From Haplodiscus bocki (lineage: Eukaryota), in contig OZ296657.1 in NCBI GenBank assembly GCA_965655095.1, positions 72,664,001 through 72,728,000 on the forward strand: DNA of 64,000 bases. The letters are read 5' to 3'. Under the pieces are notes generated by a model. That model worked only from the letters and a program-made list of their open reading frames with translations. It had not been told where the DNA came from and searched no databases. Both the position numbers and the translations under genes were made by a program. Numbering within the stretch: position 1 is the stretch's first letter; each line of letters starts with the position of its first letter. This document shows positions 11,151 through 64,000 of the stretch, one piece after another.

Positions 11151-11222
11151 AAATATTTTAAAATTAATATTTGATGAGTTTCATTACTACAGATGGCAAA
11201 TAATGTCAGAAAGTGTACCTAC

Positions 11223-34593: not shown

Positions 34594-34793
34594 NNNNNNN
34601 NNNNNNNNNNNNNNNNNNNNNNNNNNNNNNNNNNNNNNNNNNNNNNNNNNNNNNNNNNNNNNNNNNNNNNNNNNNNNNNNNNNNNNNNNNNNNNNNNNNN
34701 NNNNNNNNNNNNNNNNNNNNNNNNNNNNNNNNNNNNNNNNNNNNNNNNNNNNNNNNNNNNNNNNNNNNNNNNNNNNNNNNNNNNNNNNNNNNN
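34594..34793. other. Assembly gap (200 N)
   Basis: Run of N. Confidence 1.
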
Positions 34794-35988: not shown

Positions 35989-37810
35989 TGTCCGGCTGAT
36001 GTACGGCTTTACAACAAATGGTACTGTCATTAATTCTGGAATAAGGGCTCAGACGCGGTGTTTTTACCATTCCTTGAACCCACAGAGTCAATTCGTCTAG
36101 TTGACGGGTTAGTTGAGCGATGAATCTTTTGATTTGTTCGTTGACCTTTCAAGTAAAATTCAGGAATATTTGCCTGATTTCTTCCGATTTATTGACGGCT
36201 TTTTTATCTTCAACACTACCGTTTTCACTCAGCGGGGTGTGAGTTTGTGTTATGCCTGTGCCGTCTCTCAAATTTCGATGACTCAAAACCGAGCCTTCAA
36301 GTTTCAAACCTTGAATTTAGCAATGAAATTAGATGTAGTTTTGATTTTAAGAAAAATTGAAGTCTTAATGCAAGCGGGTTCACAAAAATGGATGGAAAAT
36401 AATGAAAACATCAATAACTCCTGAATTTAATTGAAATCAGCTAAGACCAAAATATTTAGTGCTGTGTTGGGATCGTGTGTACGTTCACGCACACGTGAAG
36501 GCTGGCTTTCTGATTGATTGCGTCAAATTCGCGGTGGTGCTTGTTGGATATGCGTGGTCACGTGAACGATGGTAAGACGCAAATCTTTTCGGCTCATTAG
36601 TTGTTTTACTATTTAACAGATATAGGTGTGATCGCAAATTCACCGCAACCGTGTGTGCTATGTTCGTATAACATGGTATTTATGCAAACTTGTTGCAACA
36701 AGGTTAAATAAAATCAAGATGGCGAAAAAAATCTGAATACATCGCTTTCATACGTTATGCAATTGCACAGGGTGAAGTTTGCTGAGTTGATATATTTACT
36801 ACAGCATTCTAGATGCTCTCGTCATTGTCTTACATCAATTTCAGGTTATTTTTGTTTTCATCTGATTTCGTCATTTCGTCTATTTCTAAAGTTGCTATTT
36901 CTTGTCTCGAAGATGTTACTCCTTAAGTTGGATGAATTCTGATGTATTTAATTAGTAGCACAACTCATTGTTCCACTGTTGTTCATGCGTGGGAAATTCA
37001 CTTCGATATAGCCTTGAGTGGATCAAAAGTCATGTATAGTAATTTAATAAGATTACAATGAGGGATGAAAGCAGCACGTCTGTTTAGTCCAGTTTTCATC
37101 GTGTGGGTGCTAAGAGATGCATTTTATCTCGTTTTAATGGTTATACAGAGGCCTCAGTAGTTTGGATCAAACAGAAGAAAAATTAAAACACTGGTAAAAG
37201 CACAATCGGAGGTTTACACTGGTCGTATATAGCCGATGAATTTTGTTTTTGTCAATATTCTGTTCGATCAATATTTAGGAGGCATTCAGTTTCATCAAAT
37301 ATTCTCTGTTTAGCGAAATTCTACCATATAACCGTTCGGAATAAAGTAATAGGAGGATACATCAAATTGATGTCTTCCGATGAAAATAATTTCCGGCTCG
37401 TTTATTAACATTTAGTCTGGCCACTACAGAGGGCACTTGTAGTGGCTTATGGTGTTCCCGTTGGAAAATTCCGGGGTCTTTTGTGTAAGTTCCAGTTACT
37501 CTGAGCCAGCATCCGAAGTTGTGTTTTTCTTGGAATTGTTTCAGCACATTGGGTTCAGACGGATAAAGAGGCTTTTATTTAATCACCAATACATTGTACA
37601 TAGTACATATTGTTGTTTACATAAAACATGAATCTCGTTCGCAGCAGGGAAAGGGAAGTAGGAAAACAATGCAACAATTATACTTCTATCCGGTTTTGTC
37701 TACAGAACAGCATTAAGACCTTGATACTGATAATGGTTTCCTATATATTTGATTAACTGTAAGTTTAGGGAAATGTAATTGTCTCATTATTCCCTCATGC
37801 GGGCCTGACA
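35989..37810 (-). repeat. 3' LTR (1822 bp)
   Basis: Minus strand TGTCAGGCCC...CAGCCGGACA, preceded by purine-rich AGAAGAACATGGGGAG; collinear with 49286-51005. Confidence 0.8.
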
Positions 37811-37826
37811 CTCCCCATGTTCTTCT
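37811..37826 (-). promoter_or_regulatory. Polypurine tract
   Basis: AGAAGAACATGGGGAG abuts the TG of the 3' LTR. Confidence 0.6.
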
Positions 37827-43800: not shown

Positions 43801-46800
43801 TGTTGCTCTTTTGGGGCCCGGCGCCCATCCGTCGGCTGTTCTTGGTGTGTGAGACAGCGAGGTTGTCTCCTATTTAATTTTGATCACCATCTGGAACTAG
43901 AGCAGGGCACTTGTTCGTCCTGATTCCAATCAATTTCCATCGGTGGGTGTTGAGATTGGGCTGTTGTTTGTTCGTGTCCGCCGAGCGAAGTATTGCGTTT
44001 CATTGCTGTCCTACGGGCAACACTTTCTTGGAAGTAAGCGTCGGAAAACATTGGTTTTTTTCCGGAATTGATCTTAGCCATATTTTTCGTCTGTTCCGTC
44101 GTCACTTGCATCGGCTGTTGCGGATGTTATTAGTTTTTCATCGGAAATTTCCGCGTGTTCAAATGCATCCGTATCAGTAAACAGGTTTTTTTGACTGACC
44201 TGAAATTCGTCAACTTCGTTTTGAGATACAAAGGTTGCAAACTCAACTGGTCAACGCATTGATTTTTGTGGGTCCCTTTTCTGACCAATGTTCTAGCTAC
44301 TGTTGGATAGCACTTTCATCCCTTTGAAGGGTCCCTGCCATCGGGCAGCTATAAATTTTTCTTTGGAGCTCTAGTCGTTAAACATTGGTTTCTACAGGAA
44401 CACGAAATTGTTAACGTTAACCTATCGTAAGAGGTTTTGCTTTTAAGGCACGCTATGACGATGTTGTGCAGGTCTTCTAAGCAACTTTCGTTGATATCAT
44501 CTAGTATCCTTTTGATGGTTGTTGGTTGATAATTCAACATGAAGTCTAGTGTCCTGAGTGGTGTCCTACCATGGAAAGACTCCTTTTTAGTGCAAGTCAA
44601 GGAAGCGTGGTGGCTTGTGTTTTGGGCCATGACTGCAATGTTTACGTATTTGTCCCACTGAGGCTGTTTTGCGCTAACGTTAACATGAAAGATGGTTTCC
44701 AATTTTTAATGGTTCTTCTCTCTCGTTCGTATGGCTTGAGTTTGTTTGATGGTTTCGTGTTTGATGCAAATTCCGGCTTGTTTCAACACTACTTCGGCTT
44801 TCACTACATCGGCAATGAAAGTTGTTAAATTGTCCGTCAGGATGGTTTTCGGGATGTATGCGTGGGTTGTGAAAGTCGAAATCGGACCTTTCACGACGGA
44901 CGGTGAGATGAGACTATGCATGAAACCGTTGAATGCTGAAAGTGGTCCTTAATAATTTATTTCCAACGTTCTTCTAGTTCTTTTTTGCGGTCGTATATAT
45001 TCTGCAGGGGCAGTCGTAAGTGTTGTCTGGTTTTTGGTTTCGACTTGATGCAGATCAGACAACTGCCTAGAAACTCCTGCACGTTGTCAGCTAAGTTAGT
45101 ATTGTTATCTAAGCTGATGCAACAACTTTTTTGACACCGAGTAACCCTGCTTGATGTCTTGATGCGGTGTCTGGTGCATGTCTTTCATACGTGATTCTCG
45201 TTCTACTAATTGTTGATAAAAGATTTTAGGTTTGTTGCCAAAGTACTTAGGCAAAGTACCCCTTTGTTAACTTCTAGGCGTCTTATGATTTCATCATGTT
45301 TTTGAAAAACTGGCTTTCAAAGTATACGTGTGCCGGTTGCGCCAGTTCCTCCAACTGTTTTGGTCTTTTTAATGTGCCTCATGTTTTCTTAGACAACTTG
45401 TATTCTAACTGTTTTTGATGGACTAACACTATTCAGTGCTCGGAATGGCAGTGATGTGTTGTGTACAAATATGACGAGTGTCATCTGGTCTTTCACTGAT
45501 GTTTTCCGATGTCAGTCGTCAGAGTGCGTTGACATCCGGTGGACATCGTAAGCTGTCGGTGGGGGCAACTCTCGCTTCATGCCACCTGATAGTTTGTCAA
45601 CCATTGTGCTCAAACGAAGTTTTCGGGTGTATCCATCAGCCTCGTTGTGAGGGTAGAAGCCGGTTTCCTCTTTTATCTTGCTTTAGCATCTTTGAGGCAA
45701 AGTAAACTTCTTTGAAGCGAGGTTAAACACTGGATAACAATCAATTAATTTCAAAAAAAATCCTGAGGTGGAACGCCTAGGTGCGGCAAGTAGTCGGCCG
45801 CCGGATTCTCAAGACCGGGAAACTGAGCTAAGGCAAAATTATATTGCAACGTTTGATCACAGAAATTCCTGTTTGATGTGCAGAAGTGTTTGGCCCCAAA
45901 TGATATAATTAACGCTTTGTTGTTGGTCATTAATATGATAGGTTGTTCCGTTTCCTATAGAATATATCCAAAGTCATCGTTTGGTAGATGCGTTTTCGAA
46001 AATTTTTTATCCGCTCAATGATAGTGATATTTGCCCTGTGCTAAACCATTTCGAATCTAAGGCTACCGAGGGGAACTTGCCGGTTTCTCCTGTTTCGTTG
46101 ACTGTAAAATCTGCGATTAGGTGGACAGAGCCAGCAGCATGTTCGGTGGTGTCAAAGATGTTGAGTAATTGTTTATAGGGTAGGAGCAGTTTCAGCGACA
46201 GTTTGTACGCTTTCAAGACAGTCGTTAATTTCCACAATTGCGTCCCTTTGTTGCTGAAACAGTTTGAAAAGACCATCTTTTCCTAACAGTAAAGGTAACG
46301 GAACTAGTTTTTTGTATATTGTAGGGATTTATTGCCAGTAAAAGTTTACTTGTTTCAAATAGCGTTGAAACGTTCTGACAAAACTTAGCAGCATTTGTTT
46401 ACCGCTCTTCGATGCGTGCAATTCTAGCTTTTGAGACGGTCATTCCTACAAATTCTATCGAGTGTTCACGGAATTGGCGCTTTTCTATGGACAGTTTGGA
46501 ACGTGCTTTTCTTAAATCTTTAAGCACATTGTTAAAGTTTTCGATCAGTTCGGATGCGGTAAGGGCTGCTACACCGTTGTCATCTACGTTCTATGCGCAA
46601 CAATCTGCTTTCACTACATGGTCCAAAGCTTCCCAAATCACACTAGTTAAAGTTGATAAAAAACTATTTAAATTTTATGTTAAACGTCCGTTAGCGAATG
46701 TTCTTCAACCAAACTGAAGCGGGCAACTGTACGGACTGCTCATCTGCCATCTCCACGTGATTTGAAAATTGAGAGTACAGAAGTACTCTTTCTAGGCCAA

Positions 46801-49271
46801 GTGCCGTGTTGAGTCTGAGATTGTCGTCATCGGTTGATTGTATTCTCTTCATTGATGTTTTACCAGCTTGTTTATTCGACGTAAGTCAACTAAAAGAATT
46901 AGCGTATCGTTGGGTTTGCGTTGAGATACAATTGGTGTCAATTACTTCCTGAAAAGAAGTTTGGTTATAAACGCGTGCTCTTGCATCAGTGCAAATACAA
47001 CCAACTAACCGTCCTTCAAGTTTGTCGGAGTCGGGATACTTTTCAAATAGACCGGCTTATCAAATTGTGGTGTTAGCTGAACTTTGATATCTGTGTTTAT
47101 ACCTATGTCTAAGCAATGCCTAGCAAAAAATGAACCTTATTTCACAAAGACGGTTCTACTATAGTTTCCTCATCCCAAAAGAGTAATGATTAGTCCCAGT
47201 TGGACTTTAACAATTTTTTTTTCCTCTGCTCAGCGGATTTTGGCGGGTTCAGCTGCTCTTTGCTCCAGAGAGTGTATATCTCCTCATAGATGCACCTCTA
47301 TAACTTGTTCCGTTTATTTGGATCAACAGACGTCTCCGATGTTGATGTTGGGTACCATCGTTTTACATCGGTTTCTGTCTGTGTGTGGAAAAACTGACTG
47401 AGAATTGAGGTTGTGCTCTTGCTCCTCTGGGTGGTTGTTCATGAGCAACACCTGCGCGTGTGGCACTGGCTTCGTGTTTGTTGCTTGCTATTGGGTCTTC
47501 AAGTTGATGTTTGCCACTGCTAAACAACTGCCAAGTGGGTGGGTTTGGTTGTGGGCATTAGTCCCCTGAGTCATCGTTTTCCCGTTGTCAAGGTGACTAC
47601 TGCCGGCTAAACCACGAATTAGTCTTTTCCCTCGAATGCTCGTGTTGCTTACACGACGCTATTCGTAGGAGCCTAGGTAGCCTCACCTGGGACGTGTGCT
47701 AGCTCCTATCGGAACGGCAAAATCACTGTCTTCTGTGTCGCCTGCCATTCTGTAAAACCGTTCAAGCACTTGTTTTTTGAATCCTTATGTAATTGCATTG
47801 ATATGCCGGGAAGGTGTACTAAATGAGGTTATACGTCAACAGTTTTGGAGTGTGTTTCAAAAAAAGACTCTTGTATCACTAAAGTTTCCCATTGTTAGTA
47901 GGACCTCAAAAATTGCTTCGGAGCTATGTCCTGCTTGGAAAAAAGGTAACTGCACTTGTTTCATGATTTTGACTAAATTGCCGTTGGCGATCTGAATTTT
48001 GAACTCGGGGACTGGCATCTCCGGTAGTACGGCTTCTGGGTGTCCGACCGTTAATTTGCGAAGTTTTGATTTTAAGTGGGAATTTCCGTTTCGGATTGTT
48101 CCGGTGTCCAGAAGAACATTTGCCTCGCACGTCTCAAAAGGATTGAGTAAAGCATTCCATGATTCTCAAGGATTTTCCTAGTACTTTGAAATTGATTTGA
48201 AGCTGTTTTTTGTCGTTAAACATAGAAATGGAATCAAAATCGTTATTACGATTCGTTTTTAGATACCACTCCATGGAGTTTGTCGCTCTCGCTTTTGTCT
48301 CGTCTGCGGTCCGTGTGAGTCGCTGATTGGTTATCGTCCCGTCATCAGGTGTGCAGGACAGGTGAAAATTGATGTCACCTTCGATCAGTTTGTCAGCCAA
48401 GGCGTCAAAACATTTTGGTCTTTGGCTTTTGACCGTCATTATTGAGTGATTGTCCTCTACTGTCATCGTGTCTGGCGTTTGTTGTTCTTCATCATTGGAG
48501 GCTGCCTTCTCCCCTCATGCTAGTGTTATCGGTGTCAGTAATCCGTAGTTGTGGTTGTCGTTTGATTTAGTTGTCGCACAACTGTCGTATTGTTAGATTG
48601 AAGACGTGGCGTGTATACTAGTCCTAATGCAGTCGTTTGTGAAAGGAAACCTTTATTCTTCTGGGGTGGCATCCTCTTCATTGCTATTCATTAAGTCTTT
48701 CTGGATTGAGTTTGGGAGTTTGCCGAAGAAAAATGTCTGTATACTTTAACCCAAAAATTCTAGCAAAAACTGATTCAGGAAGTCTGAGAACGTGATGTCT
48801 GTGGGATCGTAAACTCAGTGGTCCAATTCAGAACAGGTGATATCCTTGGGGTCAATTTTGGTGAAATCTTTCCAAAACTTTTTGAATACGTCATTCGAAT
48901 TTGTTTTTCGGTGACGGTGAGTGGCTAGTAGATTTGGATTTCTTGTTCTTGGAGTAGGCTTTAAAAGTACTGGAGCTTCGCCCTTTTAGTCAGTCTGTTA
49001 CTCATCGGGCGCAGGTGTACCCTCAACAAGTGTTCGAATTCGTTGAACTTGTCTTTCGTTCCTCGGTAAGTGGGCACTTGCGTCTGCAAACTTTGGGCAT
49101 TCTTCGTTTGGGTTCGGCTGCGTATTTTCGTGATGGCTTCAGGCAAGTGTTAATAAGGTCGGTCAGTTCTGGTAGCAACTACTATCGGAAACGTGTTTCG
49201 TGCTCGCTGTATGATAATTCATCGTGGGTGTTTGGGCTGGTCATCGGTTGCTGTCTCTTCCGGGGTTCAGT

Positions 49272-49285
49272 GGCTCCTCTCACCA
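49272..49285 (-). promoter_or_regulatory. Primer binding site
   Basis: TGGTGAGAGGAGCC directly follows LTR end ...CCCGACA, exactly where homology between the two LTRs stops. Confidence 0.65.
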
Positions 49286-51005
49286 TGTCGGGCTGAGGTA
49301 CGGCTTTACCACAATTGATACTGCGATCAGTTCTGAGGTAAAGGTTCTGATGCGGTGTTGTTACCAGCCCCTGAACCCTCCCTCCCCCCCCCCCCGAATC
49401 AATGCCTCTAGTTGACTGGTTAGTGAGGCGACAAAACTTTTGTTTTGTTCGTTGAATTTTCAAGAAAAATTCAGGAACATTTTCTTTGTTTCCTCCGATT
49501 TTTCAATGGCTATCTTGTCTTCAACAGTATCGTAATCACTCATTGTGGGATTTGAGTTTGTGACATACCTGTGCCATTTGTCATTTCCCCATGAGTTAAA
49601 ACCGAGCTTTCAGATTTTAGAGCTTGAATTTAGCCATGAAATTTTATGTGACTTGCAGTTTAGCAAAAAAAATGAAAGTCTAAACGCAAGCGGGGTTACA
49701 AATGCGGTCGGAAATTGATGAAAACTTTAGTTAACCCTAACTGCAAATTGAATCAACTAAGATCAAATAATTAAGTAGTATGTTGGCAGCATGTGTACAA
49801 TCCCGCAAACGGGAAGGTTGGCTTCCCTATTGATTGCGTCAATTTCGCGGTGGTGCTTGGTGGTTATGCATGGTCACGAGTCCAGAGGCGAGATGCGAAT
49901 CGTTTTGGATCGCTAGTTGTTTTACCATTTAACAGATATAGGTGTGAGCGCAAATACACCGCAACCGTGGCGGCTACGTTCGTATGACATGCTAGTTTTG
50001 CAAATTTGGGGCAACAAGTTTGCATAAATTGAACATGGCTGAGTGTATCTAGATACATCAAAAACATACGTAAAAAGGCGCCGGGTGAATTTTAGAGTGT
50101 TAATACAATATATACAGAAGTCTAGATGTTCTCATCTTTGCCCAACATCATTTGCAGGCTTTTTTGGTTTTTATCGTAATTCGTCATTCCGTGTATTTCA
50201 AAGATTGTCTTTTCCAGTCTGGTGGCTGTTATTCCTTAAGTCGTGCGAAATCCGATATAATTTATCAATAGCACATCTCATTGTTTCCACTCTCGTTCAT
50301 GCGTATGAAAATTATTTCGATAGAGCGTTGAGTGAACGAATAACGATGTAAAATACTTTTTCAAAACATAATGAAGTTTCGAAGAAACATTTCTGCCTTA
50401 TCCGCTTTTCATCCCGTGGATGATAACAGTCTTGTTTTAATTTTTCTGATAATCAATACATGAGGTTTCATCGTTTGGACGAAAATTCATAGAAACTCAA
50501 ACCACTGGTGAAAGCACAGTCGGCTATTTACACCGGTCGGAAGCAAACCCATGAATTTTGTTTTTGTCTTTTATCTAATCCGTCATTTTTATAGGTCTAT
50601 AAGTATCCATAAATTTTCATTCTTCAACGATATTCTACTGTGTGACTGTTCGGAATGAATCCATAGATAGCAACATCAAACTGATGTCTTCTTTTGAAAA
50701 TCTATTCCGGATCTTTTTTTACCACTTTGTGTGGTCACTACAGAGTGCATTCGCAGCGAATCATGTATTCCTGTTGGAACGTTCCGAGACTTTTTAAGGC
50801 AGCTCTAGTAACTTTGATGCTTTATCAGAATCTCTCTATTTCATTGAATTATTTCAACAGTTTGGTTTCAGATGGGTAAAGACGAACTTTTTTGCACAGC
50901 AATACTCTCTACATAGTTAATATTTTGCTGTTTACTTATAACATAAATTGCAATCATACCAGTGGAAAGGCAAGTAATTGAACATAACAACATTTTTACT
51001 TTTAC
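49286..51005 (-). repeat. 5' LTR, outer ~120 bp missing or interrupted
   Basis: Direct repeat of 35989-37685 at roughly 70% identity by eye. Confidence 0.8.
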
Positions 51006-54000
51006 AAACTTTGGCTAAGTTGCAATGAGCTCTTCATGATGCTCTTGGATTCAAACAAATTAAAGTTAAAAGTTGAGATAGGTTATAGCTAAGTTACTTG
51101 AACCAGGAAATGTGGAGGCTCCCCCACTCTAACCGAGAGTTCTCGGCTGTTTTTCGGCGTAACGATGTTCAATTCTAATTGGCTGACAAGGTTTCTGGTT
51201 TTTTTTTAGATTGATTGTGATTGGCTGCCGACAAATTTACGGTTTTGGGTTAAGTTCGACTGTGTTCGGCGCCGTATTGAGACTGTATGTTAATGTCTCA
51301 GTATAAGGTATGGAGTTTTATTATGTACAAAGATATGGAGTTCAGTATAATGACTCAGTTTTGGCAACGTGAGACTTTTTCGAAAAAAAACTTTTTGAAA
51401 ATTTTCTCGGGTACCCAACGCCTGGACTAAACATCATGCAGCTTGCAGACAAAGTGCAATGCCGTCGTTCAATTTTTACGTCTGCAGAAGTTCAGTAGCT
51501 TTGTTAATAAATTTTTGCTACGTATAATTATCAAATTTTGACTAGAGGTACAACTTTGGGTGTTCTCCTTCGTTTGCCCAACACATTATTGTACTACAAA
51601 AGTAATATGACAGGCAAGGTTTATTGATACTGTATAAGTTTGGGTTCCTAGTTTATTTATTGTGAAAAGAAGGAGTCTTCTGTCGAACTCCTTGAATAAA
51701 ATACTTTACAGTAAAATAAATATGGTTTTCTCGAAGGAAAAATCATAATGTTCACCGTTGTCACTATTGCTGCGACGTTCAAGTAACACCCGTGATTCTT
51801 GAACTGACATGGAACAACCAAAAAACATCTTATGCCAAAAATAGCGTAAGTTTGAATTGTGATGAAAAATGTCCTTGGTGAGCAAAAAAGTAATTGATTT
51901 AGTGTGACAGATTTTTTAAAACAAACGTTTCGGCCATGAGGTTGACAAAAAAATTTCTAAACATCCTAATGGTTTTTGTCCTTTTAATCTCTGTTACGTG
52001 ATTTATCAAATAAATATGGGAATTGTTTGTAGTTGCTCCTGATTGAGTAATTGCGCAGAGACACCTCTGCGTTACAGCATAACAATTAAACAGTAGTTTA
52101 GCGGCGAAGTATCTGTATAATGACGAAGACGTTTGAATGCACACCATTCAGCAACTGACCGTGAAATACTGTACGACACTGCTACCTTTTGGTGATTTCT
52201 GACAGAAAAAGTATGTTTGCAGGCTTTTGTTTGGGTTTTTTGCCCCAACCGTGGAACTTTCAGCCAGGCGAGCATACAAAAGTTTAAATATGGGGGTTGT
52301 TTCATAAAATTCCAAGAACTTAAATCCACAGTAGCTAATTTTCTACTCCGGTTGAGTTTTTCCGTCGAGCTGTTGTGTGATACGGCTGCTCTTGAAATGT
52401 GCCTCAAAAAATATCGACGGTACAAGTTTTCAATTGGTGAGAGAATTAACGTGGAAAAAGTCATAGAAAAGAAACTGTGGGAAAATTAAATGTATTTTGA
52501 TTGGTGCTTTGCAACATTTCCAAAAACAATTTCTCACCTGCGGCAGAGTTGAGCCAGCATGAAAAAATGCTAGCAGTAGACGTTGCCAGAGACTGAGATA
52601 ACAAGAAACACTTAGATGCTGACTTTTTGAAAGAGAAAGAAAAGCATGTAGTAACAGAAAGAGCTCTATCCATTAGCTAGTGAAATTAAATTCTGTGGCT
52701 TCATCGCTTTAAAAATGTTGTTATCTGTAAGTACGTTGATATTTCATTTCTAAAATTTACAAAACCCCCTTCAAAGTCACCAAATCTATCCAAAAGCAAA
52801 CAACCACTCTCCAAAAAAAACAGTCTGATTCTTACCTTTAATAATGTTTGGGATGCGATGCAGCATCTCTGTTGGCCTTCTCTTCAAAAATTTGTCTTTT
52901 TTATTGTTGAATTCATCTGATTTTTGAATTGTTTTCTCACTTTTTTTCAGCAACAACTGGCATCTGTTCAATTCTTTTGAAGTGTTATTTAAAGTCTGCA
53001 GCTCTCTCTGAAAAGTTCGTCCTTTCTTTGTACACACAGTCCCGTTGAATCTGAATTTGCGCACAATCTAACAACGTTCCTCAAGCTGATCTGTGAACTC
53101 AGCCTCCTCCAACTTTCCTAAGATTTTTCTCATACCATTTTTTTCAATGATTAGTGTATAACATTGAATTTTGTGTTGAGAAAGAAATATTACACTATGA
53201 TTTCCAGAGCAAAAAATCCAAAGACTAGATTTTTCTCCTGATGATCTGCAGAGTTGCACGAACAGTTTGTGAATGGTTTGGTTAGAAGGCGGGCTTTAGT
53301 TGTAGTAGAACGGCAGCCATCGTTGTTGCATCAATGTTGTCTATTCAAGTATATCTCGAACAAAAGATGACTTAGCATTAATACACTCAAACGCCTTTTT
53401 ACTTGGTGTACATATATAGATAAAATAAAGAGTCTTCTAAACTTAACGGGAATTTTGTTGACGAATCAGATTGAAAGAATTTTAGGCTGGTTCACGAGCA
53501 CCAGATATGGGAAACGTTTCTACAAACGGTTGGTAGCCAGAAAGGATTTTTACAGAGAGAACAGTTCGTGGAGTGACAACGTTGCTGACTCTTATTCAGG
53601 AACTTCAATTTTCACCAATACTAGAAAACTGATTCCTGGATGGATGAAAACCGAGGCCTCTACCGATACACCAGTTTCCAAACAATTTTAATGGTCTTTC
53701 GTTATCCTGGTTTACGGAAGCTTCCAACCACCGAATAACAAGCACATTAGCAAAGGTGGTTACCAGCTGGAGACCTGAACTTTCGAAAAAATCTAGAAAA
53801 TTTAGAGTTTTTCTCAGATATATCCAGATAATTCTTGAAAAAGAAGGAGGAAAACAATCCATTTTGGGGGATTTTATTCAGAAATTATATCATTTATCGC
53901 TGTACATGGTCCAATTTGAAAGTCTTTTCCTGTATCGCACTCTGTTCTTCTGCTTTGTTTCTGCACAACTGTCTTCACAAGTTACTTTGCTGTTTTGACT

Positions 54001-54478
54001 GAGAGAAGGGATTCATTTAAATAGTGATTTCAACATTAACAAGAGTGAAACAGAAAGATTGCAGTAACTTGACTGTAGTAATGCGGAAGAAATAATAGCG
54101 GAATTTTTTTAGCAAGTGAAACGCATAATTTTGAACGAAATCTGGGGATACTGTAGCAGGAACGACAGTATTACATGACCAAAAAAGGAACAGCTGACAG
54201 CTGATTCACGTAACCGTCAAAAGAAAAGTTGATTCACATAACCATAAAAAGAGCCGCTAATCAGTTATTCCTTTCTTCAAAGTCGACAATTGATTGAAAA
54301 AGAAATTGACTGGAAAAACAATTCATGATATCAAGCAGAGACATTTTGCCCAACGAAGTAAATCAAGCCGAGCAATTTCCTCTCATATGATGACAAACTG
54401 TCGGAGAAAATCAGTCAAGTAGATTAGTTTCCTCTGATAACGAGACGACTTGTCTGCAACAATCAATCAAGAAAATTG

Positions 54479-54780
54479 TTCAGAAACTGATTCATTTAGT
54501 GCTGTTCAGCGTGACAAATATGCCTCTCTTCCCGTTTTGCACTCTATTTTTCTTTGTTGTTTCTGTACCAATGTCCTCACAACTAACTTGAGAGAAATAA
54601 AAAAAATAAAGAGAGTCCAATCAAGGAGTTTGTTCAGAAATTGATTCATTTAGTGCTGTTCAACGTCACAAATGTGCCTGTTGTCCTGTTTGGCACGCTA
54701 ATCTTCTGAGTTGTTTCTGCACCAAAATCCTCGCAACTAACTTTTTCGATATGATTGAAGGAACGGATTCCAAAGGAAAG
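54479..54780 (+). repeat. 154-bp tandem duplication, mirrored at ~62770-63120
   Basis: ttcagaaa.tgattcatttagtgctgttca at 54479 and 54633. Confidence 0.8.
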
Positions 54781-57234
54781 TGTTTTCAACAATGATCAGG
54801 AGGAAACGATAAGATCGTAGCAATTTGACTGATGTAATGTGAGAAAATAGTGGCGAGGTTTAATTAGCACGTAGTAGTTATTACTTTCCATCTACTTAGG
54901 AGAGACTGTAACAGGAAAAACCATTGAACGAAAGACTTTTGTACAAAACCAAACAAAACATTGTTTCACATAACCAAAAAAAGAGCTGCTAATCCTTTGA
55001 TTTCCCCTCATAGTCGACATATGGTTTTTGAAAAACACTTATTGATAAAACATTTTATGTTCTCCAGCAGAGACTTTTTGCTCTAAGAAAGTAATCGAAC
55101 AGGGCAAGTTGCCCTCATAGCATGACAAGCTGTCGGAGAAATTCAATCAGGTTGAATAATTTCCTTTGGTAGGGAGACACTTTGACTGTGACTATTAAGC
55201 GAGTGGAAGAAACTTCCCTGACAATGACACATATTGTCTGATTATGGTCGTCAAATTGAACAAAATTCTTTTGAATATGCGTTGAGTACTTCCGTGTCAA
55301 TTATCGATCAAATACGTGAAAAGAAAGCAAAGTAAAATTTGCACATTGATTGTAGTGTGCAAGTTAAAAGCAGTCGAACGACAACATGCACGACATTTAT
55401 CACCAGCGAAGAAGTCCCGTTGTCCGGAGTTTTTCAACTCTAAACTGCAGCTTCATATTTTTTTAACCGACGAGAAACATTTATATCTCTTTGTTTTAAA
55501 AACAAGCAAGGCATGTGTTGCCATCACTTAAAGTCGAAATACCTAACCCACAATCACTGCAGGTGACGGGGTGTTGTAAACAACTGATTTTGAAACGCAA
55601 AATTATGTCAATTCTGGCACTAAAACCCCACCAAAGGAAAGACTAACTTTCATTGGAAATAAGTCCTGTTTTTGACAGAAAAGGAAAGATATTCCTTATA
55701 AAAAGACTCATTGCGTAACTGACAAGGAAAGGGTCGATTTTTTATGGAAGATAGGTATCACTTGGTTGAAACTGTATGCAAGCGGCAAGCCGTTGTTCAG
55801 AAGAACATTTGTATAAAAATTGTTCCCCAAGAACAACAACTAGTCTCTTCTGGCCACCATTTAACACAACCGCTGGTGACTTTTGTCATCAAAATTTTTT
55901 AACGGTGAGAACTACTTGCTCAATCATCGGTAGGAAGTACAGTTTCTTCCCTTTGCAAGAAGCTATGGAAAACTACAACAAAACCAAAAAACCTCTTAAT
56001 GATCCTTCAAAACTGGCGTTTGATTCTACTTGGTTGCGGGAAGTCGAGTTTTTTGCAATTTTGGTAAAAAAAAACTCAGGAAGACAGTTTCACTCGATGA
56101 TATGGTGCACTTCATTGATGACGAGATCATCGAGACCTATGTAGATTTTATTTCTGGTATTACCTCCTAACCTGAAGCCCTTACAAAAATCAACTGTATC
56201 AACCGGGATCGGAAAATTGTTTGCAGACCCTGTGAAAACCCACTGAACCCCATGTAACGATCAACCTACCTGTTCGATCGATGTCAAGCATACCTCTATC
56301 AATTTTATGGGCTCCTGCAATTTATGAGAGATGGATCCAGCAGCTCATCTATCACTCAACCACCTTCCCGATAGGGAACCTATGACCATGCATTTAACTC
56401 AAACATCAACTCATCAACTTAAAACAAACTTATCTACGGTTTTATCTTCATTACGGTCGATGGACAGTGAAAGGAAGGCGTTGCGCGTCAGCTTTCTATT
56501 CTTTCAAAGCAATCATTTACCTGACGGTCGGGTGAACGAAACAGTTGCTACAGTTGAAGTTTTGATATTTTTGATAGGAATCCCTGATCAATGTATGGAG
56601 TGCCTTCCTTTGTGCCGAACTGTAATTGTAACTAGGAGTAATTTTTGTTTTAGTTGTTTCATTTCTATCATTTGCTTGTTCAGTGTTTTTTTGCGTTTTT
56701 TCGAAGTTCACTTTTTGAACCAAACTTTTGATGAAGTTGACGAAGAACGAAAACTTGATCAACAAGCAAAGTGTGAACTAACGCTCCCATAAGCACCCGA
56801 GTTCACAGCCTAGACCCAATTTTTTGCAAATGTTCATCCTGCACTACTACATAGATGCACACCCTGTTCAACATTCAGTGACTAAAACCTACTTCGAAAC
56901 TTGAACAGGTCGTTTCTATGTCCTATAAAATAACATAACACCTAAAGGAGTCATTAAAGTTGGACTCTCCATATCCGTAGTTGGCAAAGCCTACAGTCTC
57001 TATTGAAACAATTGCGAAAACCAATCCCTGTCTAAGTATTATGATGAACACACTTAGTTCGTATTAGCTCCCTTAAAATGTCTTGATAAGTTGATTGCTT
57101 ATGCCAAAACCGAACTCTACCCTAAACATTCATTTGACCATCGGAAGCCACACCATAGTTTAAGACATTGCCGAAATGTAACTTATTTTGATAGCTGGGT
57201 GAAAACATGAAGAATTGCAGAAGAAGTGGATGGA

Positions 57235-57335
57235 AAATCTGACACGTTGTAAAAACGTTGGTTCAAAATCTGACGCTTTGTAAAAAAAATTTATTCAAGA
57301 TCTGACAGGTTTTAAAAGAACTGGTTCAAGCTGAT
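57235..57335 (+). repeat. ~31-bp tandem units (AAATCTGAC...GGTTC), mirrored at 60290-60385
   Basis: Three copies of aaatctgac-----gtaaaa---ggttc in each arm, with more degenerate copies out to ~57620. Confidence 0.7.
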
Positions 57336-58529
57336 TTGGTTTTTTCACAAAAAGGTTTTGCTTCAGAATCTTGCTTTTGAATATGTCGCTTCTCTGGACT
57401 AAATGGAGTCAATATGGTGTCTTTTGAATGCTATATTTTCTTCGCAATCTGTCTTTTTTATCAAAAGAAGATGATCCAAAAACAGACGCCTTTTAATACT
57501 TTCAAGTCGAAACCTGACGCGTTGCTATTAAAACTGATTCCAAAACTGTAACGTTATAAACTTTTTGTCTGAAAATCTGAAAAATTTTTAAAGTTTTCCA
57601 CCCAGGATTTGACACATAGGAAAATTTCATAATCGTTTTCTTTCACTTGCTCGCTCTTATACTGGCTGAACGATCAGTTCTGTTGGCAACATTAGAAACA
57701 CTTTGTTGCAGAGAGCCGAAGCCAGAGACACTGTCTGTCATAGATTCCATCGCCACAAGTTCAAACAAAAATTGGAAGGCAATTCCATTACAATATCAGT
57801 TGGGAAGAACACCACTATGATGATTGATATTTTTCACGAAGCCTCTGGTCAAAACTCTCTGGAGCATAAAACCCGACAGATCAATGGTATTTCTCAAGAT
57901 AAAGCTGTTTGAAAGACAAAAAGAAAAATTTTGGTTGAAATTCCGTTCATTTTCATCAAAGACATTGTGTGAGCGACAACGAACAATAGAGCGATGGGAA
58001 GAAACTGACGCCTACACAGAATCAACACGTTACCTAGATTGGGTGCTGGACGTCACCCAACACAGTCTCGGCACCCAAACAAAGTTGACAATGTTTGCTC
58101 AAAAAGTTTTATTCAAGGCTAAATTGAGCCAAAACCTACCGTTGGTAGCCGAAAACATCCCGAACTCTTAACCCATCATCATACAAGGTCGAAGTACAAT
58201 TTACCGCAATGGACAGGTGTAGACACTTCGCAGATCCACGGCTATATGACAGGTTTTGTTTCTCAGGTCGGACAGACTTTGCACTCTATCCTAATACTTT
58301 GCCGAGCGCAGTCTGATTGGATGGTTGATCGTAATACTTTGGCAGCTGAACGCACTAGGTCTCTCACCAAAGCCAACCGATAACTCAAGTCAAGGACTCG
58401 GGTCCTCCAAACCCACACCGTACATTGCAGAATTGTGCAGCGTCTAAATACTTTGCCGAAGAAGAATACCAAAAATTAACACATTGTCGAAGTGTATTTT
58501 ATCCTAATACAATGCCCATTTTTACAAAA

Positions 58530-59201
58530 CTTTGGAAATTTGCGACGTTCACCCTTTTTCACTACTCTAGGCAAATTTACCCTATCTTATTACATTGCTG
58601 GTGTGGAGCCTTTGATAACACATTGCTGAAGCATATCTAATCTTGACATTTTGCTGACGTTTACCCTAAAATGATAGTTTGTATTTTAGGTAATTTCATA
58701 GACTATACTTGCAAAAACTATCAAATTAGGGTAAACGTCAGAAATATATCAATGTTGGATATACTTTGGCAATGAATTATCATAGGGTAGGCACCAGCAC
58801 TGTATAAAGAAAGGGTATACTCCAGCGAAGCCTTAAAATAGGGTAAATGTCTTCTCTGCACTAAGATAGGGAACACTTCGAAAATGTTTCAAGAAAATGT
58901 AGACATGAGCAAAAGGACAAAGTAAGTTAAATGTCGGCAATGTGTTAAGAAATTGTAAAATTCGGCAATGTACTAACATAGGGAACACCGCGACAACGTA
59001 TCAAGAAAATGGACACTTTCACAAAGTTTTAAGATAGCGTATAGTTCACTAATGTATTTCGGTAGAATAAAGAATGGCAATATGTCGAAATTGGATATAC
59101 CTCAACAATGTGTTATCATAGGGTACACACCAGCAATGTAAGAAGATAGGGTATACCTGCATAAAACACTGAAAAAGGGTAAACGTCGGAAAATCCCGAA
59201 A
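58530..59201. repeat. Two divergent arrays of a degenerate 28-bp unit
   Basis: Core ATAGGGTAWAC starts at 58726, 58782, 58810, 58838, 58866, 58978, 59034, 59118, 59146 and 59174 on +, and at 58669, 58613, 58585 and 58557 on -; all spaced by multiples of 28. Confidence 0.88.
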
Positions 59202-62200
59202 GTTTGTAATAGTGGGCATTGTATTAGGATGAAAACTAATTCGACAATGTGTTAAAATAGGGTGTTCTTCTTCGCAAAGTATTCAGAGGCTGCATAATTC
59301 TGCAATGTACTGTGTGGGTTTGGAGGACCCGAATCCTTGACTTGAGATATCGGTCGGCTTTGGGGAGAGACCTAGTGCGTTCAGCTGCCAAAGTATTATG
59401 ATCAACCATCCGATCAGACTGCGCTCGGCAAAGTTTTAGGTTAGAGTGTAGAGTCTGTCCGATCATGGAAAAAAACCTGTTGTGTAGCCTTGAATCTGAG
59501 TAGTGTACACACGTGTTCATTACAGTAAGTTGTTTTTCGACCTTGTATGATGATGGGTTATGGAATTGGGAATTTTTAATCCAGCAAAGGTATATTTTGG
59601 GTGGAACATGGCTTGAAAATTGCTTCTTGGTAAAAACAATTTTGTTGTAGGGCCGAGACTGTGGTGGGTGACTTCTAGCACCCAATCTGAATAACCTTTT
59701 TCATTTCCTTTTTCGAACAAGTATATCTGGACGAATACTGTTGTTCTGCTGGATTTTAGGCTCCACGAATTTCTGTCCACAGTTTTCGTGAAAAATGTCA
59801 AGCGTCGTAACGCTGTTCCTTCCAGATTGATAGTGTAATGAATGTGTGTTCCAATGTTTGGTTGTACATTTGGCGATCGAATCTAGAACAGGCAGTGTCT
59901 TTTAGTTCTGCTCTATGCAACGAGGTAATTGTTTTGTTGCAAACAGAACTGATCGTTCAGCCAGAGCATGAAGGAAGAATTGAAAAAAAAAGGTTTTGGA
60001 TTTTTTTACGTGTGAGTTCACCAATGAAAAATTTTAAAACTTTCGAACTTCGATATGAAATGTTCAGAACGTTACAGAGTTCGAATCGATTTTTACAACG
60101 CGTCAGTTTCCGAACTGAAAGTACTACAACGCGTCTGTTCTTGGATCAGTTTTTTTTTGTTGAAAAAATAAATTACGAAGAAAAACTAGCATTCAGAAGA
60201 ACAAATTTGACTCCATTTAGTCCATGAAAACGACATTTTTGAAAGGAAGTTTCTGAAGCAAAACCTTTTTCGATTAAATCAAATCAACTTGAACCATTTG
60301 TTTGAAAACTTGTCAGATCTTGAACACACTTGTTTACAAAGCGTCAGATTTTGAACCAATGTTTTTACAACGTGCCAGATTTTGCATCCACTTCTTCTGC
60401 AATTTTTCATGTTTTCACCCAGCTATCAAAATAAGTTACATTTCGGCAATGTCTTAAACTATGGTGTGACTTCCGATGGTCAAATGAATGTTTAGGGTAG
60501 AGTTCGGTTTTGGCATAAGCAATCAACTTATCAAGACAATTATGGGAGCTAATACGAACTAAGTGTGTTCATCATAATACTTAGACAGGGATTGGTTTTC
60601 GCAATTGTTTCAATAGAGACTGTAGGCTTTGCCAAGTACGGATAAGAAGAGTCCAACTTTAATCACTCCTTTAGGTGTTATTTTATTTTATAGGACATAG
60701 AAACGACCTGTTCAAGTTCCGAAGTAGGTTATAGTCACTGAATGTTGAACAGAGTGTGCATCTATGTAGTAGTGCAGGATGAACAATTGCAACAAATTGG
60801 GTCTAGGCTGCGGACTCGGGTGCTTATGGGAGCGTTACTTCACATTTTGCTCGTTGATCAAGTTTTCGTTCTTCTTCAACTTCATCAAAAACTCGGTTTG
60901 GAAAGTGAACTTCAAAAAAACACAAAAAAACACTAAACAAGCAAATGATAGAAATGAAACAACTAAAACAAACAAAACTACTCCTAATTACGATTACAGT
61001 TTGGCACAGACGGAGGCACTCCATACATTGATCAGGGATTCCAATAAAATATCAAAACTTCAACTGTAGCAACTGTTTCGTTCGTCCGACCGTCAAGTAA
61101 ATGACTGCTTTGAAAGAAAAGAAAGCTGACGCGCAACGCCTTCCTTTCACTGTCCATCGACCGTAATGAAGAGAAAAACGTAGACAAGTTTGTTTTCAGT
61201 TGATGAGTTGATGTTTGAGTTAAATGCATGGTCATAGGTTCCCTATCGGGAAGGTGGTTGAGTGATAGATGAGCTGCTGGATCCATGTCTCATAAATTGT
61301 AGGAGCCCATAAAATTGATAGAGGTATGCTTGACATCGATCAAACAGGTAGGTTGATCGTTACATGGGGTTCAGTGGGTTTTCACAGGGTCTGCAAACTT
61401 TTTTCCGATCCCGGTTGATACAGTTTTTTTTGTAAGGGCTTCAGGTTAGGAGGTAATACCAGAAATAAAATCTACATAAGTCTCGATGATCTCGTCATCA
61501 ATGAAGTGCACCATATCATCGAGTGAAACTGTCTTCTTGAGTTTTCTTTTACCAAAATTGCAAAAAACTCGACTTCCCGGAGCCAAGTAAAATCAAACGG
61601 CAGTTTTGCCGGATCGTTAAGAGATTTTTTGGTTTTATTGTAGTTTTCCATAGCTTTTTGCAAAAGGAAAAAATTGTAGTTACTACCGATGACTGAGCAA
61701 ATAGTTCTCACAGTAGACAAGTTTTGATGACAACTTCCACCGGCGGTTGGGTATATTGGTAGCCACATGACACTAATTGTAGTTCCTGGGAAACATTTTT
61801 CACAAAAGTTTCTTCAGATTAGCAACTTGCTGCTTTTGTACGCTTTCAGCCAACTTAACTTGTACGGAAACTGCTTCTTTTTCGGTCATTCACACGACAT
61901 ATTTCCAAGTAAAGAAGTCTTTTATTGGAGTCAAGAATTAAAAAGGTTCTGTTTTCTTTTTTCTGTTGATTACAATGCCGCATCATTTTTATTGGTTGGG
62001 GTTGGGAATTTCCGATTTTCAGCAAGAACAACACTGGCATTGCTTTTCTTTAAAATAAGAAAAAACAGAACTAAAATTTTTTTTGCTGCTTGAAAATTGA
62101 ACTTGCAGTTTATTGGTTAAATTCTTCGGTTAAATAGATTTCTTTACTGGTGAAAACTGTCCTGCATGTTGCCGTTCGAATGCTTTTAACCTTCACACTA

Positions 62201-64000
62201 CAATCAAGATGCAATTTTTTATTAATCTTTTATCGGCTTGGATCGGTACTTGACATGGAAGTACTCCCTGCATATTCAAAAGAAATTTATTCAACTTGAC
62301 GGCCATACTCAGACATTATGTCTCATTGTCAGGGAAGTTTCTTCCACTCGATTAATTGTCACGGTCAAATTGTCTCCTTACCAAAGGAAATTAATCCACT
62401 TGAGTGACTTTCTTCGACAGTTTGTCAGCCTATGAGGGTAACTTGCTCTGTTTGATTACTTTCTTAGAGCAAAACGTCTCTGCTTGAGAAGATAAAATGT
62501 TTTTTCAATGAATGTTTTTCAATAACCATATGTCGACTATGAGGGGAAATCAAAGGATTAGCAGCTCTTTTTTTGGTTATGTGAAACAATGTTTTGTTTG
62601 GTTTTGTACAAAAGTCTTTCGTTCAATGGTTTTTCCTGTTACAGTCTCTCCTAAGTAGATGGAAAGTAATAACTACTACGTGCTAATTAAACCTCGCCAC
62701 TATTTTCTCACATTACATCAGTCAAATTGCTACGATCTTATCGTTTCCTCCTGATCATTGTTGAAAACACTTTCCTTTGGAATCCGTTCCTTCAATCATA
62801 TCGAAAAAGTTAGTTGCGAGGATTTTGGTGCAGAAACAACTCAGAAGATTAGCGTGCCAAACAGGACAACAGGCACATTTGTGACGTTGAACAGCACTAA
62901 ATGAATCAATTTCTGAACAAACTCCTTGATTGGACTCTCTTTATTTTTTTTTATTTCTCTCAAGTTAGTTGTGAGGACATTGGTACAGAAACAACAAAGA
63001 AGATTAGCGTACAAAACGGGAAAAGAGCCACATTTGTGACGCTGGACAGCGCTAAATGAATCAATTTCTGAAGAAACTCCCAGATTTGACTCTCTTTATA
63101 TTTTTTATTTCTCTCAATTTAATGTTGTTTCATGACTCTGCACTTTTCTTTAGTAACAGTTAGACATTAGTGAACGAGTTACTCCTTTTAAAAGTTGTAA
63201 TCCGTTCTCGTGCAAATGAATGTCAAATCTTGTCCCTCAATCAACTACTGCGTTGGTAACTTTTGCAGGCTACATTATGACTGTAGATTCTCCTAGTTTG
63301 ATTGGTGAGAACATTGTTAAACTACTGTGATGTTATGTGGTGCGTGTCTAATCTCCTACCTTAAACCTTTTTGGTTCTGTTTTGCATAAGCAAACAGAGT
63401 GTTGTTCATTTAAATGACAAATTTGGCCAATTCTGACAGGAACTCTAAAATTCGGAGACATCGTCCAAAAACTTACATTTTTTGCTTGTTACCATTTTTG
63501 CTTAGGTGTTTCTTAATCGGTGAATGAATGCTTCCGTAAATCAGAGAAACGAAAGACAAGTAAAAAGTTTGGGAAAGTCGTGTTTTGGTAAAGAGCTCAA
63601 TTTTCATCCATCTACGGAGCTGCTTTCGTCTCTTGGAGAAATTTAGGGTTCGTTGAAGAACAGTAACCAATGTACTCACTCCACATACGTATTTATGTTG
63701 ATCATTCCAAGCTACCAAACAAGTATGAAAACCTTTTGTGTATCTGGCAATGGTGGATCAGCTTGAAAATCTTTTTAATCCTGATTGGTCAACAAAAATT
63801 TGCTGAACTTTTTAATTTCTACCCCTATCTGTACATACAGTTTCAAGCAGCTTCTCTGTACTTGCGCCAATTCAATTGTTGCTTGAAAATTTTTTGAGTA
63901 GACAACACTGTTGCAACAACGATGGCTGCTGTTTTGCTGTTTTGTTAAGAGCTAAGACCAAGTTTTTCACAGAAGTCTTCGTTCATATCCGTCGATCACT
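58698..64000 (-). repeat. Right arm of large inverted repeat (runs off window)
   Basis: 62524-63001 is the reverse complement of 54550-55026; 63420-64000 matches 53240-53830 at low identity. Confidence 0.92.

What the first reader, a model, noticed from the sequence alone, without database searches (positions are those of the whole stretch)
58530..59201. Divergent 28-bp iteron-like arrays meeting in exact register at the palindrome axis
Seen: 18 degenerate 28-bp units run rightward from 58698 and 6 run leftward from 58697. The 28-bp period is kept although the units differ strongly. The innermost pair CTGACGTTTACCCTAA..TGATAGTTT / AAACTATCA..TTAGGGTAAACGTCAG could form a hairpin. Units at 58754-58865 recur at 59090-59201 (336 bp = 12 units), which equals the difference between the arms. 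Inference: constant spacing with a conserved AGGGTA core suggests phased protein-binding sites (origin, resolution or packaging signal), and the left array probably lost 12 units by recombination.
Basis: partly seen in the sequence, partly recalled or inferred. Interest (0 to 1): 0.7.

Follow-up and report, generated by a model that had tools for sequence, protein, structure and literature searches.

The report
Giant foldback-like repeat in acoel worm
The 28-base arrays sit at the centre of one decaying copy of a large mirror-image mobile repeat that has many relatives, in the genome of a small marine worm; it looks like an unusually large foldback-type transposon rather than a replication origin, though its ends and its mobilising enzyme were not seen.

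Summary
The 28-bp period is real (lag-28 identity 0.54 right, 0.46 left; 0 of 1000 shuffles). The right array has 18 units in register, but the left has 5, not 6. The arrays do not abut, and 'exact register at the axis' follows from where the unit boundary was drawn. They form the centre of an inverted repeat with non-coding arms of at least 5.3 kb, 66-100% identical in patches and running off the window, in a convolutid acoel genome. The arm belongs to a high-copy family: 139 protein clusters matched one reading frame. Three related sequences (two loci) carry 8-9 array units in strict 28-nt register, and two loci appear to flip into the mirror arm. So array and probably inverted layout are family traits. 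Spacing and some columns look constrained in the element's history, but this copy now drifts neutrally. Best reading: a giant non-autonomous foldback-like DNA element whose inner repeats were protein-binding sites, with later arm-to-arm conversion (0.55). Termini, target-site duplication and transposase were not testable. Iteron, origin or packaging roles have no support. A 12-unit length difference is real; its direction is unresolved.

The parts
58698..59201 (+). Right 28-bp array, 18 degenerate units in one register, G-rich strand pointing away from the centre
59202..59312 (+). Four further, weaker units of the right array, the first 27 bp long
58530..58669 (-). Left 28-bp array, 5 units in register; units 2-5 are orthologous to right units 14-17, unit 1 matches right unit 1 in its first 16 bases
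58418..58529 (-). Four further, weaker units of the left array (one of 27 bp shared with the right arm, one of 29 bp private)
58654..58741 (.). Central hairpin: 27-bp stem (58654-58680 with 58715-58741, 25 of 27 paired) around a 34-nt non-palindromic loop (58681-58714) whose right half is part of the first right unit
53240..58680 (-). Left arm of the large inverted repeat (minimum extent; its outer end cannot be fixed because the partner arm leaves the window)
58715..64000 (+). Right arm, cut off by the window end; 66-100% identical to the left arm in patches, 83% overall on 4887 aligned columns, a figure that includes a poorly aligned stretch near 63130-63480
57152..57193 (-). Isolated copy of the 28-bp unit in the left arm (31 bits; best background segment 19 bits)
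60424..60465 (+). Mirror isolated copy of the 28-bp unit in the right arm
58280..58305 (-). Partial 28-bp unit outside the left array (21.5 bits); mirror at 59425-59447 (+, 16.7 bits, within background)
57221..57329 (.). 31-bp tandem array in the left arm; mirror at about 60260-60384, with two more copies near 60090-60140
54464..54743 (.). 155-bp tandem pair in the left arm; mirror at 62807-63128; an older 732-756-bp duplicate (53869-54471) is in the left arm only
54608..55027 (.). 420-bp tract 100% identical to 62524-62943: recent arm-to-arm conversion, or local assembly collapse
56012..57215 (.). 1.2-kb tract 90-97% identical to 60402-61604 although each arm is at most 64% identical (protein level) to any relative: conversion after decay
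55950..56600 (+). Broken reading frame (stops and frame changes) matching an open frame of about 220 codons in a younger subfamily of relatives; no known family; mirror at about 61020-61670 (-)

Best explanation
The arrays are the innermost internal repeats of one old copy of a large, high-copy, non-autonomous foldback-like DNA element in a convolutid acoel genome. SHOWN: two inverted arms of at least 5.3 kb each, with no recognisable gene, carrying tandem families of 28, 31, 52 and 155 bp plus dispersed copies of the 28-mer, all pointing the same way in each arm; many diverged relatives; array linked to the arm with its period kept in other copies; neutral change between the two arrays of this copy. 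PARTLY SHOWN: the inverted layout recurs in other copies with asymmetric central deletions; patches of the arms were homogenised after they had decayed. INFERRED: in the active lineage the 28-bp units were repeated binding sites for the mobilising protein (a transposase supplied in trans, as proposed for internal repeats of foldback arms) or for a host DNA-binding protein, which would explain fixed spacing with free sequence at some columns; unit number changes in whole-unit steps by slippage or unequal exchange, giving 9 against 22 units; intrastrand fold-back of the arms drives both the conversion tracts and the central deletions. The central 27-bp stem is a by-product of mirrored arrays, not a separately conserved signal.
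For: Arms and patchy identity. No coding or RNA gene signal: Pfam gives no match at a curated cut-off in 6 full frames or 36 pieces; no codon-position bias in any of the arm blocks tested; stop-poor stretches no rarer than in 30 shuffles; no Rfam match at gathering score, no tRNA. Family: one frame of 55101-58500 matches 139 of 1.84 billion cluster representatives at E<=1e-3, 44 at E<=1e-10; the 10 looked up are unnamed open frames on separate genomic contigs, one in an 18-member cluster. Array linkage: of 155 relatives scored with a 28-periodic codon model, P0252, P0254 and P0285 give 86.6-90.3 bits over 8-9 units (620 shuffles: maximum 20.2), falling to 18-24 bits if the period is changed by 1 or 2 bases. 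Inversion in relatives: P0285 and its cluster-mate P0254 run inward through the array and then match the arm in the outward direction (E 6e-6 and 4e-4); P0187 does likewise at the array's outer edge (61% over 28 residues, E 2e-4). P0141 joins 53488-53538 to the region near 56170 in the same direction, so the outer arm is family sequence. Conversion: arms 90-97% identical at 56012-57215 but at most 64% (mean 43%) identical in protein to about 115-120 relative alignments per arm. Constraint: (column conservation repeats between array halves, rho 0.67). Models: foldback arms with variable internal repeats and non-coding middles (PMC4079207, PMC3169594, PMC3573991; passages). Mutator-like elements make up 5.7% and unclassified repeats 20.4% of a related acoel genome (PMC6451197, passages).
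Against: No terminus, target-site duplication or transposase was seen, so transposition is not shown. The inversion evidence rests on two loci seen only as translated fragments. In four 13-kb control stretches the same 154 proteins gave 13 hits at E<=0.02 and two at E<=1e-3 (best 4.7e-4), so only the P0285 match clearly beats the control; three other outward hits (P0151, P0189, P0251; E 0.003-0.016) were discounted as weak and overlapping inward alignments. In Tetris and Galileo the tandem repeats lie in the outer or middle part of the arm, not at its inner end, and arms reach only 1.3-1.7 kb. Counting all 50 units with their 4 slips and only post-insertion divergence, the indel deficit is weak (8.4 expected, P 0.08); it is strong only against total unit divergence (20 expected, P 2e-5), and the 18-unit stretch was itself delimited by being slip-free. 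The odd/even split of column conservation is only borderline (rho 0.35, P 0.07). Length conservation of satellite monomers can arise without selection (established knowledge). A younger subfamily keeps an open frame of about 220 codons, so the arms may not be wholly non-coding.
Confidence: 0.55

Rival explanations
1. The centre is a head-to-head junction of two element ends: the arrays are subterminal or origin repeats of a unit of 5.4 kb or more, and the palindrome is an integrated replicative dimer or circle junction (hairpin-primed, Maverick-dependent or similar). This is the form in which the first reader's origin or resolution idea could be right.
For: The arrays lie at the inner ends of the arms, where subterminal repeats would be if ends faced each other; dispersed copies thin out away from the centre; a 27-bp stem closes a 34-nt loop; the inverted layout seems to recur; Mavericks were put at 4.5% of a related acoel genome (PMC6451197).
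Against: No polymerase, integrase, helicase or capsid signal in the arms or in 73 of 139 relatives scanned; the stem is not better conserved than its surroundings (P 0.07); the loop is not a near-palindrome of the flip-flop kind; neither relative that crosses the centre keeps a recognisable outward array.
Confidence: 0.2
2. A one-off fold-back inversion at this locus: a break in or near an ordinary dispersed repeat (for example a very long LTR or untranslated region carrying a minisatellite) was healed through a short inverted repeat, duplicating the flank in mirror image; the array has no function tied to the axis.
For: A 34-nt loop is typical of fold-back inversions (median 36 nt in repair-proficient yeast; PMC7467729, passages); unconverted arm segments are 70-78% identical, like the 73% of the nearby LTR-like pair; LTR elements dominate acoel repeats (PMC9911081); current evolution of the arrays is neutral.
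Against: Orientation flips in one well-supported and one moderately supported independent locus; no retrotransposon gene in the arms or joined to them in any of 154 relatives mapped to 51001-64000, although Pfam also missed the decayed Gypsy-type frames nearby, so this test is weak.
Confidence: 0.17
3. Assembly artefact: the palindrome was made by mis-assembly or chimeric reads.
For: One 420-bp tract is 100% identical between arms; the window has a 200-N scaffold gap elsewhere (34594-34793).
Against: Most of the arm pair is 66-97% identical with many private indels, a private 92-bp insertion and a private duplication; artefactual mirrors are near-identical.
Confidence: 0.03
4. The array is a prokaryotic or organellar replicon or promoter array (true iterons), or encodes a repeated RNA structure or a protein repeat.
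For: Sigma-70-like sites are over-represented: 19 against 3.4 in shuffles; 11 in the right array against 2.1 in column-permuted arrays (0.1% reach it); 0 of 383 decoy motif pairs reach 11. One site at 58643-58672 matches 11 of 12.
Against: The 11 sites fall in five different registers on both strands, 2-3 units each; no plasmid, phage or prokaryote match; an intron-bearing animal G-alpha-s gene is on the same scaffold; no consensus RNA pairs or covariation; no excess at lag 84 as a 28-residue protein repeat would give.
Confidence: 0.03

Closest known systems
Foldback elements: Tetris of Drosophila virilis (PMC4079207, passages read) and Tm1 of Meloidogyne (PMC3169594, passages read)
   Same: Long composite inverted arms, internal tandem repeats whose number differs between arms and copies, no evident coding capacity, many rearranged and deleted copies.
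   Different: Arms here are at least 5.3 kb against up to 1.7 kb in Tetris; the main array is at the inner end of each arm, not in the outer domain; the middle is only 34 bases plus unpaired units; units are far more degenerate (54% pairwise); termini and target-site duplications were not seen.
Galileo (P superfamily, foldback-like; PMC3573991, passages read)
   Same: Two-arm copies without transposase, repeat number varying independently in the two arms, tandem repeats proposed as extra transposase sites, recombination and conversion among copies.
   Different: Galileo arms are at most about 1.3 kb, with roughly 210-bp repeats near the outer end and a known transposase; no P-type transposase was found here.
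Drosophila FB element with 10-, 20- and 31-bp repeats (recalled, from no call; the search returned no paper describing the structure)
   Same: Dispersed motif copies grading into a tandem array towards the centre, with unequal unit numbers in the two arms.
   Different: No sequence comparison was possible; FB units are far more uniform.
Fold-back inversions (PMC7467729, passages read) and converted chromosomal palindromes (PMC8327919, PMC7023750; search listing only)
   Same: Short non-palindromic spacer; arm-to-arm homogenisation.
   Different: Those are single-locus rearrangements, often with genes; this arm is a dispersed high-copy family, and most of it is 70-90% identical between arms.
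Plasmid iterons; viral concatemer junctions; palindromic extrachromosomal rDNA of ciliates and slime moulds (recalled, from no call)
   Same: Repeated units near a centre of symmetry.
   Different: No Rep, polymerase, capsid or rRNA gene; spacing not a whole number of helical turns; units highly degenerate; animal nuclear context.

Membership tests
Foldback-like DNA transposons | Long inverted arms | tested here: met
   At least 5.3 kb each.
Foldback-like DNA transposons | Internal tandem repeats, variable in number between arms and copies | tested here: met
   9 against 22 units in the two arms; about 9-10 in two related loci; also 31- and 155-bp families.
Foldback-like DNA transposons | Dispersed, multi-copy family | tested here: met
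   139 protein clusters from one frame; 10 checked lie on separate contigs. Seen only through translated fragments.
Foldback-like DNA transposons | Inverted layout is a property of the family, not of one locus | tested here: inconclusive
   One strong and one moderate orientation flip among 154 relatives; control.
Foldback-like DNA transposons | Tandem repeats in the outer domain, near the termini | tested here: inconclusive
   The 28-bp arrays are innermost, unlike Tetris; 155-bp and 52-bp repeats lie further out; the true termini are outside view.
Foldback-like DNA transposons | Conserved outer termini with a target-site duplication | not testable with these tools
   The right arm leaves the window at 64000; no animal genome DNA collection was available.
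Mutator (MULE) superfamily | 9-bp target-site duplication and a Mutator transposase in autonomous partners | not testable with these tools
Maverick/Polinton | Protein-primed polymerase, integrase, ATPase and capsid genes | tested here: inconclusive
   No match, but the same scan missed the decayed Gypsy-type frames and sequence beyond 64000 is unseen.
Plasmid or phage iteron origins | Near-identical repeats at whole helical turns beside a Rep gene in a prokaryotic replicon | tested here: not met
   54% pairwise identity, 2.67 turns, no Rep, no plasmid, phage or prokaryote match, animal host gene linked.
Hairpin-telomere concatemer junction | Near-perfect palindrome through the centre, with flip and flop forms | tested here: not met
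   The 34-nt loop is unpaired in the centroid structure and its halves do not mirror each other; alternative forms could not be examined.
Structured RNA array | Shared base pairs with covariation among units | tested here: not met
   0 consensus pairs in 10 double units; best pairing excess 0.17 against a null maximum of 0.17; Rfam gives only sub-threshold microRNA-hairpin matches to the central stem.

The most novel reading that the evidence does not exclude
A family of giant (11 kb or more), nearly gene-free palindromic elements in acoels whose central divergent 28-bp arrays are the working cis-element: an origin or resolution site bound by one protein at fixed spacing, with the element copied as a fold-back hairpin or extrachromosomal palindrome instead of by ordinary cut and paste, and with the unassigned open frame of about 220 codons as its own orphan protein. 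The conserved period in other copies, the 18-member young subfamily with an open frame and the recurring inversion fit this; nothing tested shows it.
Probability: 0.15. Interest if true: 0.75.

Novelty: new variant of a known kind. Interest (0 to 1): 0.4.

Why it matters
A fifth of one acoel genome is unclassified repeat (PMC6451197). This gives a structural handle on one abundant family: arms at least three times longer than the foldback arms in the papers read, with the repeat array at the inner end. If confirmed it extends the size range of foldback elements, names a candidate binding motif whose protein can be sought, and offers many natural replicates for studying arm-to-arm conversion and central deletion in long palindromes. 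It does not change what is known about replication origins unless the novel case holds. No description of such an element in acoels came up in three searches, and 'palindrom' does not occur in the two acoel genome papers searched. Repeat libraries (Dfam, Repbase) and those papers' supplements were not seen, so the family may already carry an automatic name.

Tried and rejected
Tandem Repeats Finder misses the array. Coding arms: Pfam on six full frames and 36 pieces gave only sub-threshold, unrelated matches. A P-loop-like string near 56020-56050 and a possible acidic transposase-like word near 53460, both noticed by eye, drew no support from any search and were dropped. The conserved frame: 0 Pfam matches for 73 of 139 relatives; best Atlas score 0.79 with low recognition, 1331; one PDB match at E 0.86; no homologue of 582-2000 residues; AlphaFold mean pLDDT 51, pTM 0.35, so no fold search was run; mismatches among 69 relatives are no more conservative than in a neutral simulation (-0.64 against -0.47 to -0.57). 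At least one relative (P0286) was called with TGA read as tryptophan, so many of these open frames are chance calls. The search of the outer region 51910-53710 found one protein only, P0286, 93% identical to 53485-54036; it had low power and does not fix the left end. Internal dyad symmetry of the unit: none above background. RNA structure: rejected. CpG decay as the cause of uneven columns: not favoured, since CpG is barely depleted (0.89 window, 0.80 array). A three-residue hint of an outward unit right after the array in P0254/P0285 scored only 7.7-9.1 bits, within the null, and is not counted. Plasmid, phage and prokaryote genome searches were empty. The viral and metagenome contig collections stayed unchecked, so a viral relative is not excluded. 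The Convolutriloba macropyga genome note (PMC13650328) was seen only as a listing with the start of its abstract.

Full report
HOST. The window is animal nuclear DNA. An intron-bearing G-alpha-s gene lies at about 5996-16380 on the minus strand. Its closest database protein, the unnamed P0001, clusters at 90% with named proteins of Symsagittifera roscoffensis and Convolutriloba macropyga; the window's exons are 83-100% identical to the latter in the five exon-length alignments without intron read-through and are identical to neither overall. The host is therefore a convolutid acoel, species not determined. A decayed Gypsy-type retrotransposon, recognised by eye from its frames, with 1.7-kb direct repeats 73% identical (35989-37688 and 49286-51004) lies to the left and serves as a local yardstick for neutral decay.

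THE OBSERVATION. The 28-bp period is real. Lag-28 identity is 0.536 on the right and 0.464 on the left, with 0 of 1000 shuffles reaching either. Eighteen right units are in one register. On the left only five are: the innermost claimed unit scores -18 bits. Unit homology ends at about 58681 on the minus strand and 58690-58698 on the plus strand, so the arrays are 9-17 bases apart and the 34-nt loop is asymmetric. That units meet 'in exact register' at the axis follows from drawing the unit boundary there. The central hairpin folds well (z -7.5), but its 25 of 27 match is not clearly above the 80% of the neighbouring arm (P 0.07). Four weaker units continue each array outward past a shared 27-bp unit, giving 22 and 9 units in all. 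Left units 2-5 pair with right units 14-17 (24, 24, 20, 22 of 28) and left unit 1 with right unit 1 (24 of 28, first 16 bases identical). The 12-unit difference is real; left units 1-3 also match right units 1-3 at 77%, so there are two competing axes.

THE ARMS. The arrays are the centre of an inverted repeat reaching from 53240 to the window end at 64000. Identity between arms rises and falls in gradients between 66% and 100%, with one perfect 420-bp tract. The arms hold further tandem families of 31, 52 and 155 bp and isolated copies of the 28-mer at 57152-57193 and 60424-60465 (31 bits; best background segment 19 bits), pointing the same way as the arrays. There is no Pfam match at a curated cut-off, no Rfam or tRNA gene, no codon-position bias between arms and no excess of stop-poor frames. 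Pfam also missed the decayed Gypsy-type frames, so it is a weak test for old coding sequence.

RELATIVES. One frame of 55101-58500, stops read as X, matched 139 of 1.84 billion cluster representatives at E<=1e-3 and 44 at E<=1e-10. Ten were looked up: all are unnamed open frames on separate genomic contigs, one heading an 18-member cluster whose nine compared members are 90-99.5% identical to it. They map almost only to the two arms (379 of 382 alignments). The arm is thus a dispersed family with an old burst (45% mean protein identity among 50 relatives over the core) and a younger subfamily. Scored with a 28-periodic codon model, 3 of 155 relatives (P0252; P0254 and P0285, one cluster) carry 8-9 units in strict register at 86.6-90.3 bits, against a maximum of 20.2 in 620 shuffles, and drop to 18-24 bits if the period is altered. 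Six of 154 relatives have an alignment in the outward direction. Three are weak and overlap inward alignments. P0285 and P0254 run inward through the array and then match the far part of the opposite arm (E 6e-6, 4e-4), and the otherwise unaligned tail of P0187 matches the opposite arm from the array's outer edge (E 2e-4). Four control stretches gave two hits at E<=1e-3, best 4.7e-4, so this is one strong and one moderate case for a family-wide inverted layout with central deletions. P0141 ties the outer arm (53488-53538) to the family.

CONSTRAINT AND DECAY. In six old duplicated segments of the window there are 52 indels per 1136 substitutions. At that ratio the 18 units should carry 5.5-7.1 indels and carry none (P 0.004-0.0008). 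The stretch was chosen for being slip-free; over all 50 units seen, 4 slips compare with 20 expected from total unit divergence (P 2e-5) but only 8.4 from post-insertion decay (P 0.08). Column conservation is more uneven than in 5000 of 5000 uniform simulations while pairwise identities fit a star-like history, and it repeats between the two halves of the array (rho 0.67) but only weakly between odd and even units (rho 0.35). Between orthologous left and right units, changes fall evenly on conserved and variable columns (5 of 36, 17 of 76; P 0.45). The simplest reading is constraint on motif and spacing in the active lineage and drift in this copy. In the 90-97% tract each arm is at most 64% identical in protein to any relative, which points to arm-to-arm conversion after decay; an unsampled young subfamily is the alternative.

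MECHANISM. Best explanation (0.55): a giant non-autonomous foldback-like element. The long inverted arms with variable internal repeats match the descriptions of Tetris, Tm1 and Galileo (PMC4079207, PMC3169594, PMC3573991; passages only), where such repeats are proposed as extra transposase sites. That the 28-mers were such sites, and that a transposase in trans moved the element, is inferred. Rivals: a head-to-head junction of two element ends with the arrays as subterminal or origin repeats (0.2); a one-off fold-back inversion of an ordinary repeat, for which the 34-nt loop is typical (PMC7467729, passages) (0.17); assembly artefact (0.03); prokaryotic iterons, promoters or structured RNA (0.03). 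Iterons fail on every tested point: no Rep, no plasmid, phage or prokaryote match, and 28 bp is 2.67 helical turns. One result is unexplained: sigma-70-like sites are over-represented, but in five registers on both strands, which is not a promoter per unit.

THE OPEN FRAME. The young subfamily keeps about 220 open codons with only 1-2 tryptophans, so this is not simply an effect of reading TGA as sense; the window's copies are broken. It has no Pfam, PDB, Atlas or longer homologue, folds poorly (pLDDT 51) and shows no conservative-substitution signal. It may be an orphan gene of the element or chance.

NOVELTY AND LIMITS. It works like a foldback element; membership is unproven because termini, target-site duplication and transposase could not be tested. 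It differs from the papers read in arm length (at least 5.3 kb against 1.3-1.7 kb) and in having the array innermost. Three literature searches on acoel repeats found no description; repeat libraries, paper supplements, animal genome DNA and the viral and metagenome contig collections were not seen. Verdict: new variant of a known kind, interest 0.4; novel case 0.15 at 0.75.

Noticed in passing
window 5996-16380 (-): Intron-bearing G-alpha-s gene; it places the host among convolutid acoels.
   Followed up: yes
window 35989-51004: Decayed Gypsy-type retrotransposon on the minus strand with 1.7-kb direct repeats 73% identical; reverse-transcriptase- and integrase-like remnants recognised by eye, no Pfam match.
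   Followed up: partly
window 58400-59350: Sigma-70-like promoter matches are over-represented (19 against 3.4; beats 383 of 383 decoy motif pairs), including an 11-of-12 site at 58643-58672, but they fall in five registers on both strands; unexplained, probably coincidence.
   Followed up: partly
window 56800-56870 and mirror near 60750-60810: Relatives P0260, P0153 and P0205 show one to two 28-bp-like units here (23.6, 20.8, 19.6 bits; shuffle maximum 20.2) that have decayed in the window: a possible second small cluster.
   Followed up: partly
window 491-658 and 5441-5614: Inverted pair about 170 bp long, 70% identical, 5.1 kb apart: possible ends of another old DNA element.
   Followed up: no
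window 8043-9612: Cluster of old direct repeats with a near-perfect 85-bp tandem pair (8962-9125), inside a G-alpha-s intron.
   Followed up: no
window 33092-33440: Degenerate 165-bp tandem repeat.
   Followed up: no
window 53485-54036: P0286, on an unnamed 192-kb contig, is 93% identical in protein across the left-arm-specific duplication junction: the same locus in another assembly or a close copy; it was called with TGA as tryptophan.
   Followed up: partly
window 57944-58035: 92-bp stretch present in the left arm only; relatives align through it, so it is a deletion from the right arm.
   Followed up: partly
window 34594-34793: 200-N scaffold gap.
   Followed up: no
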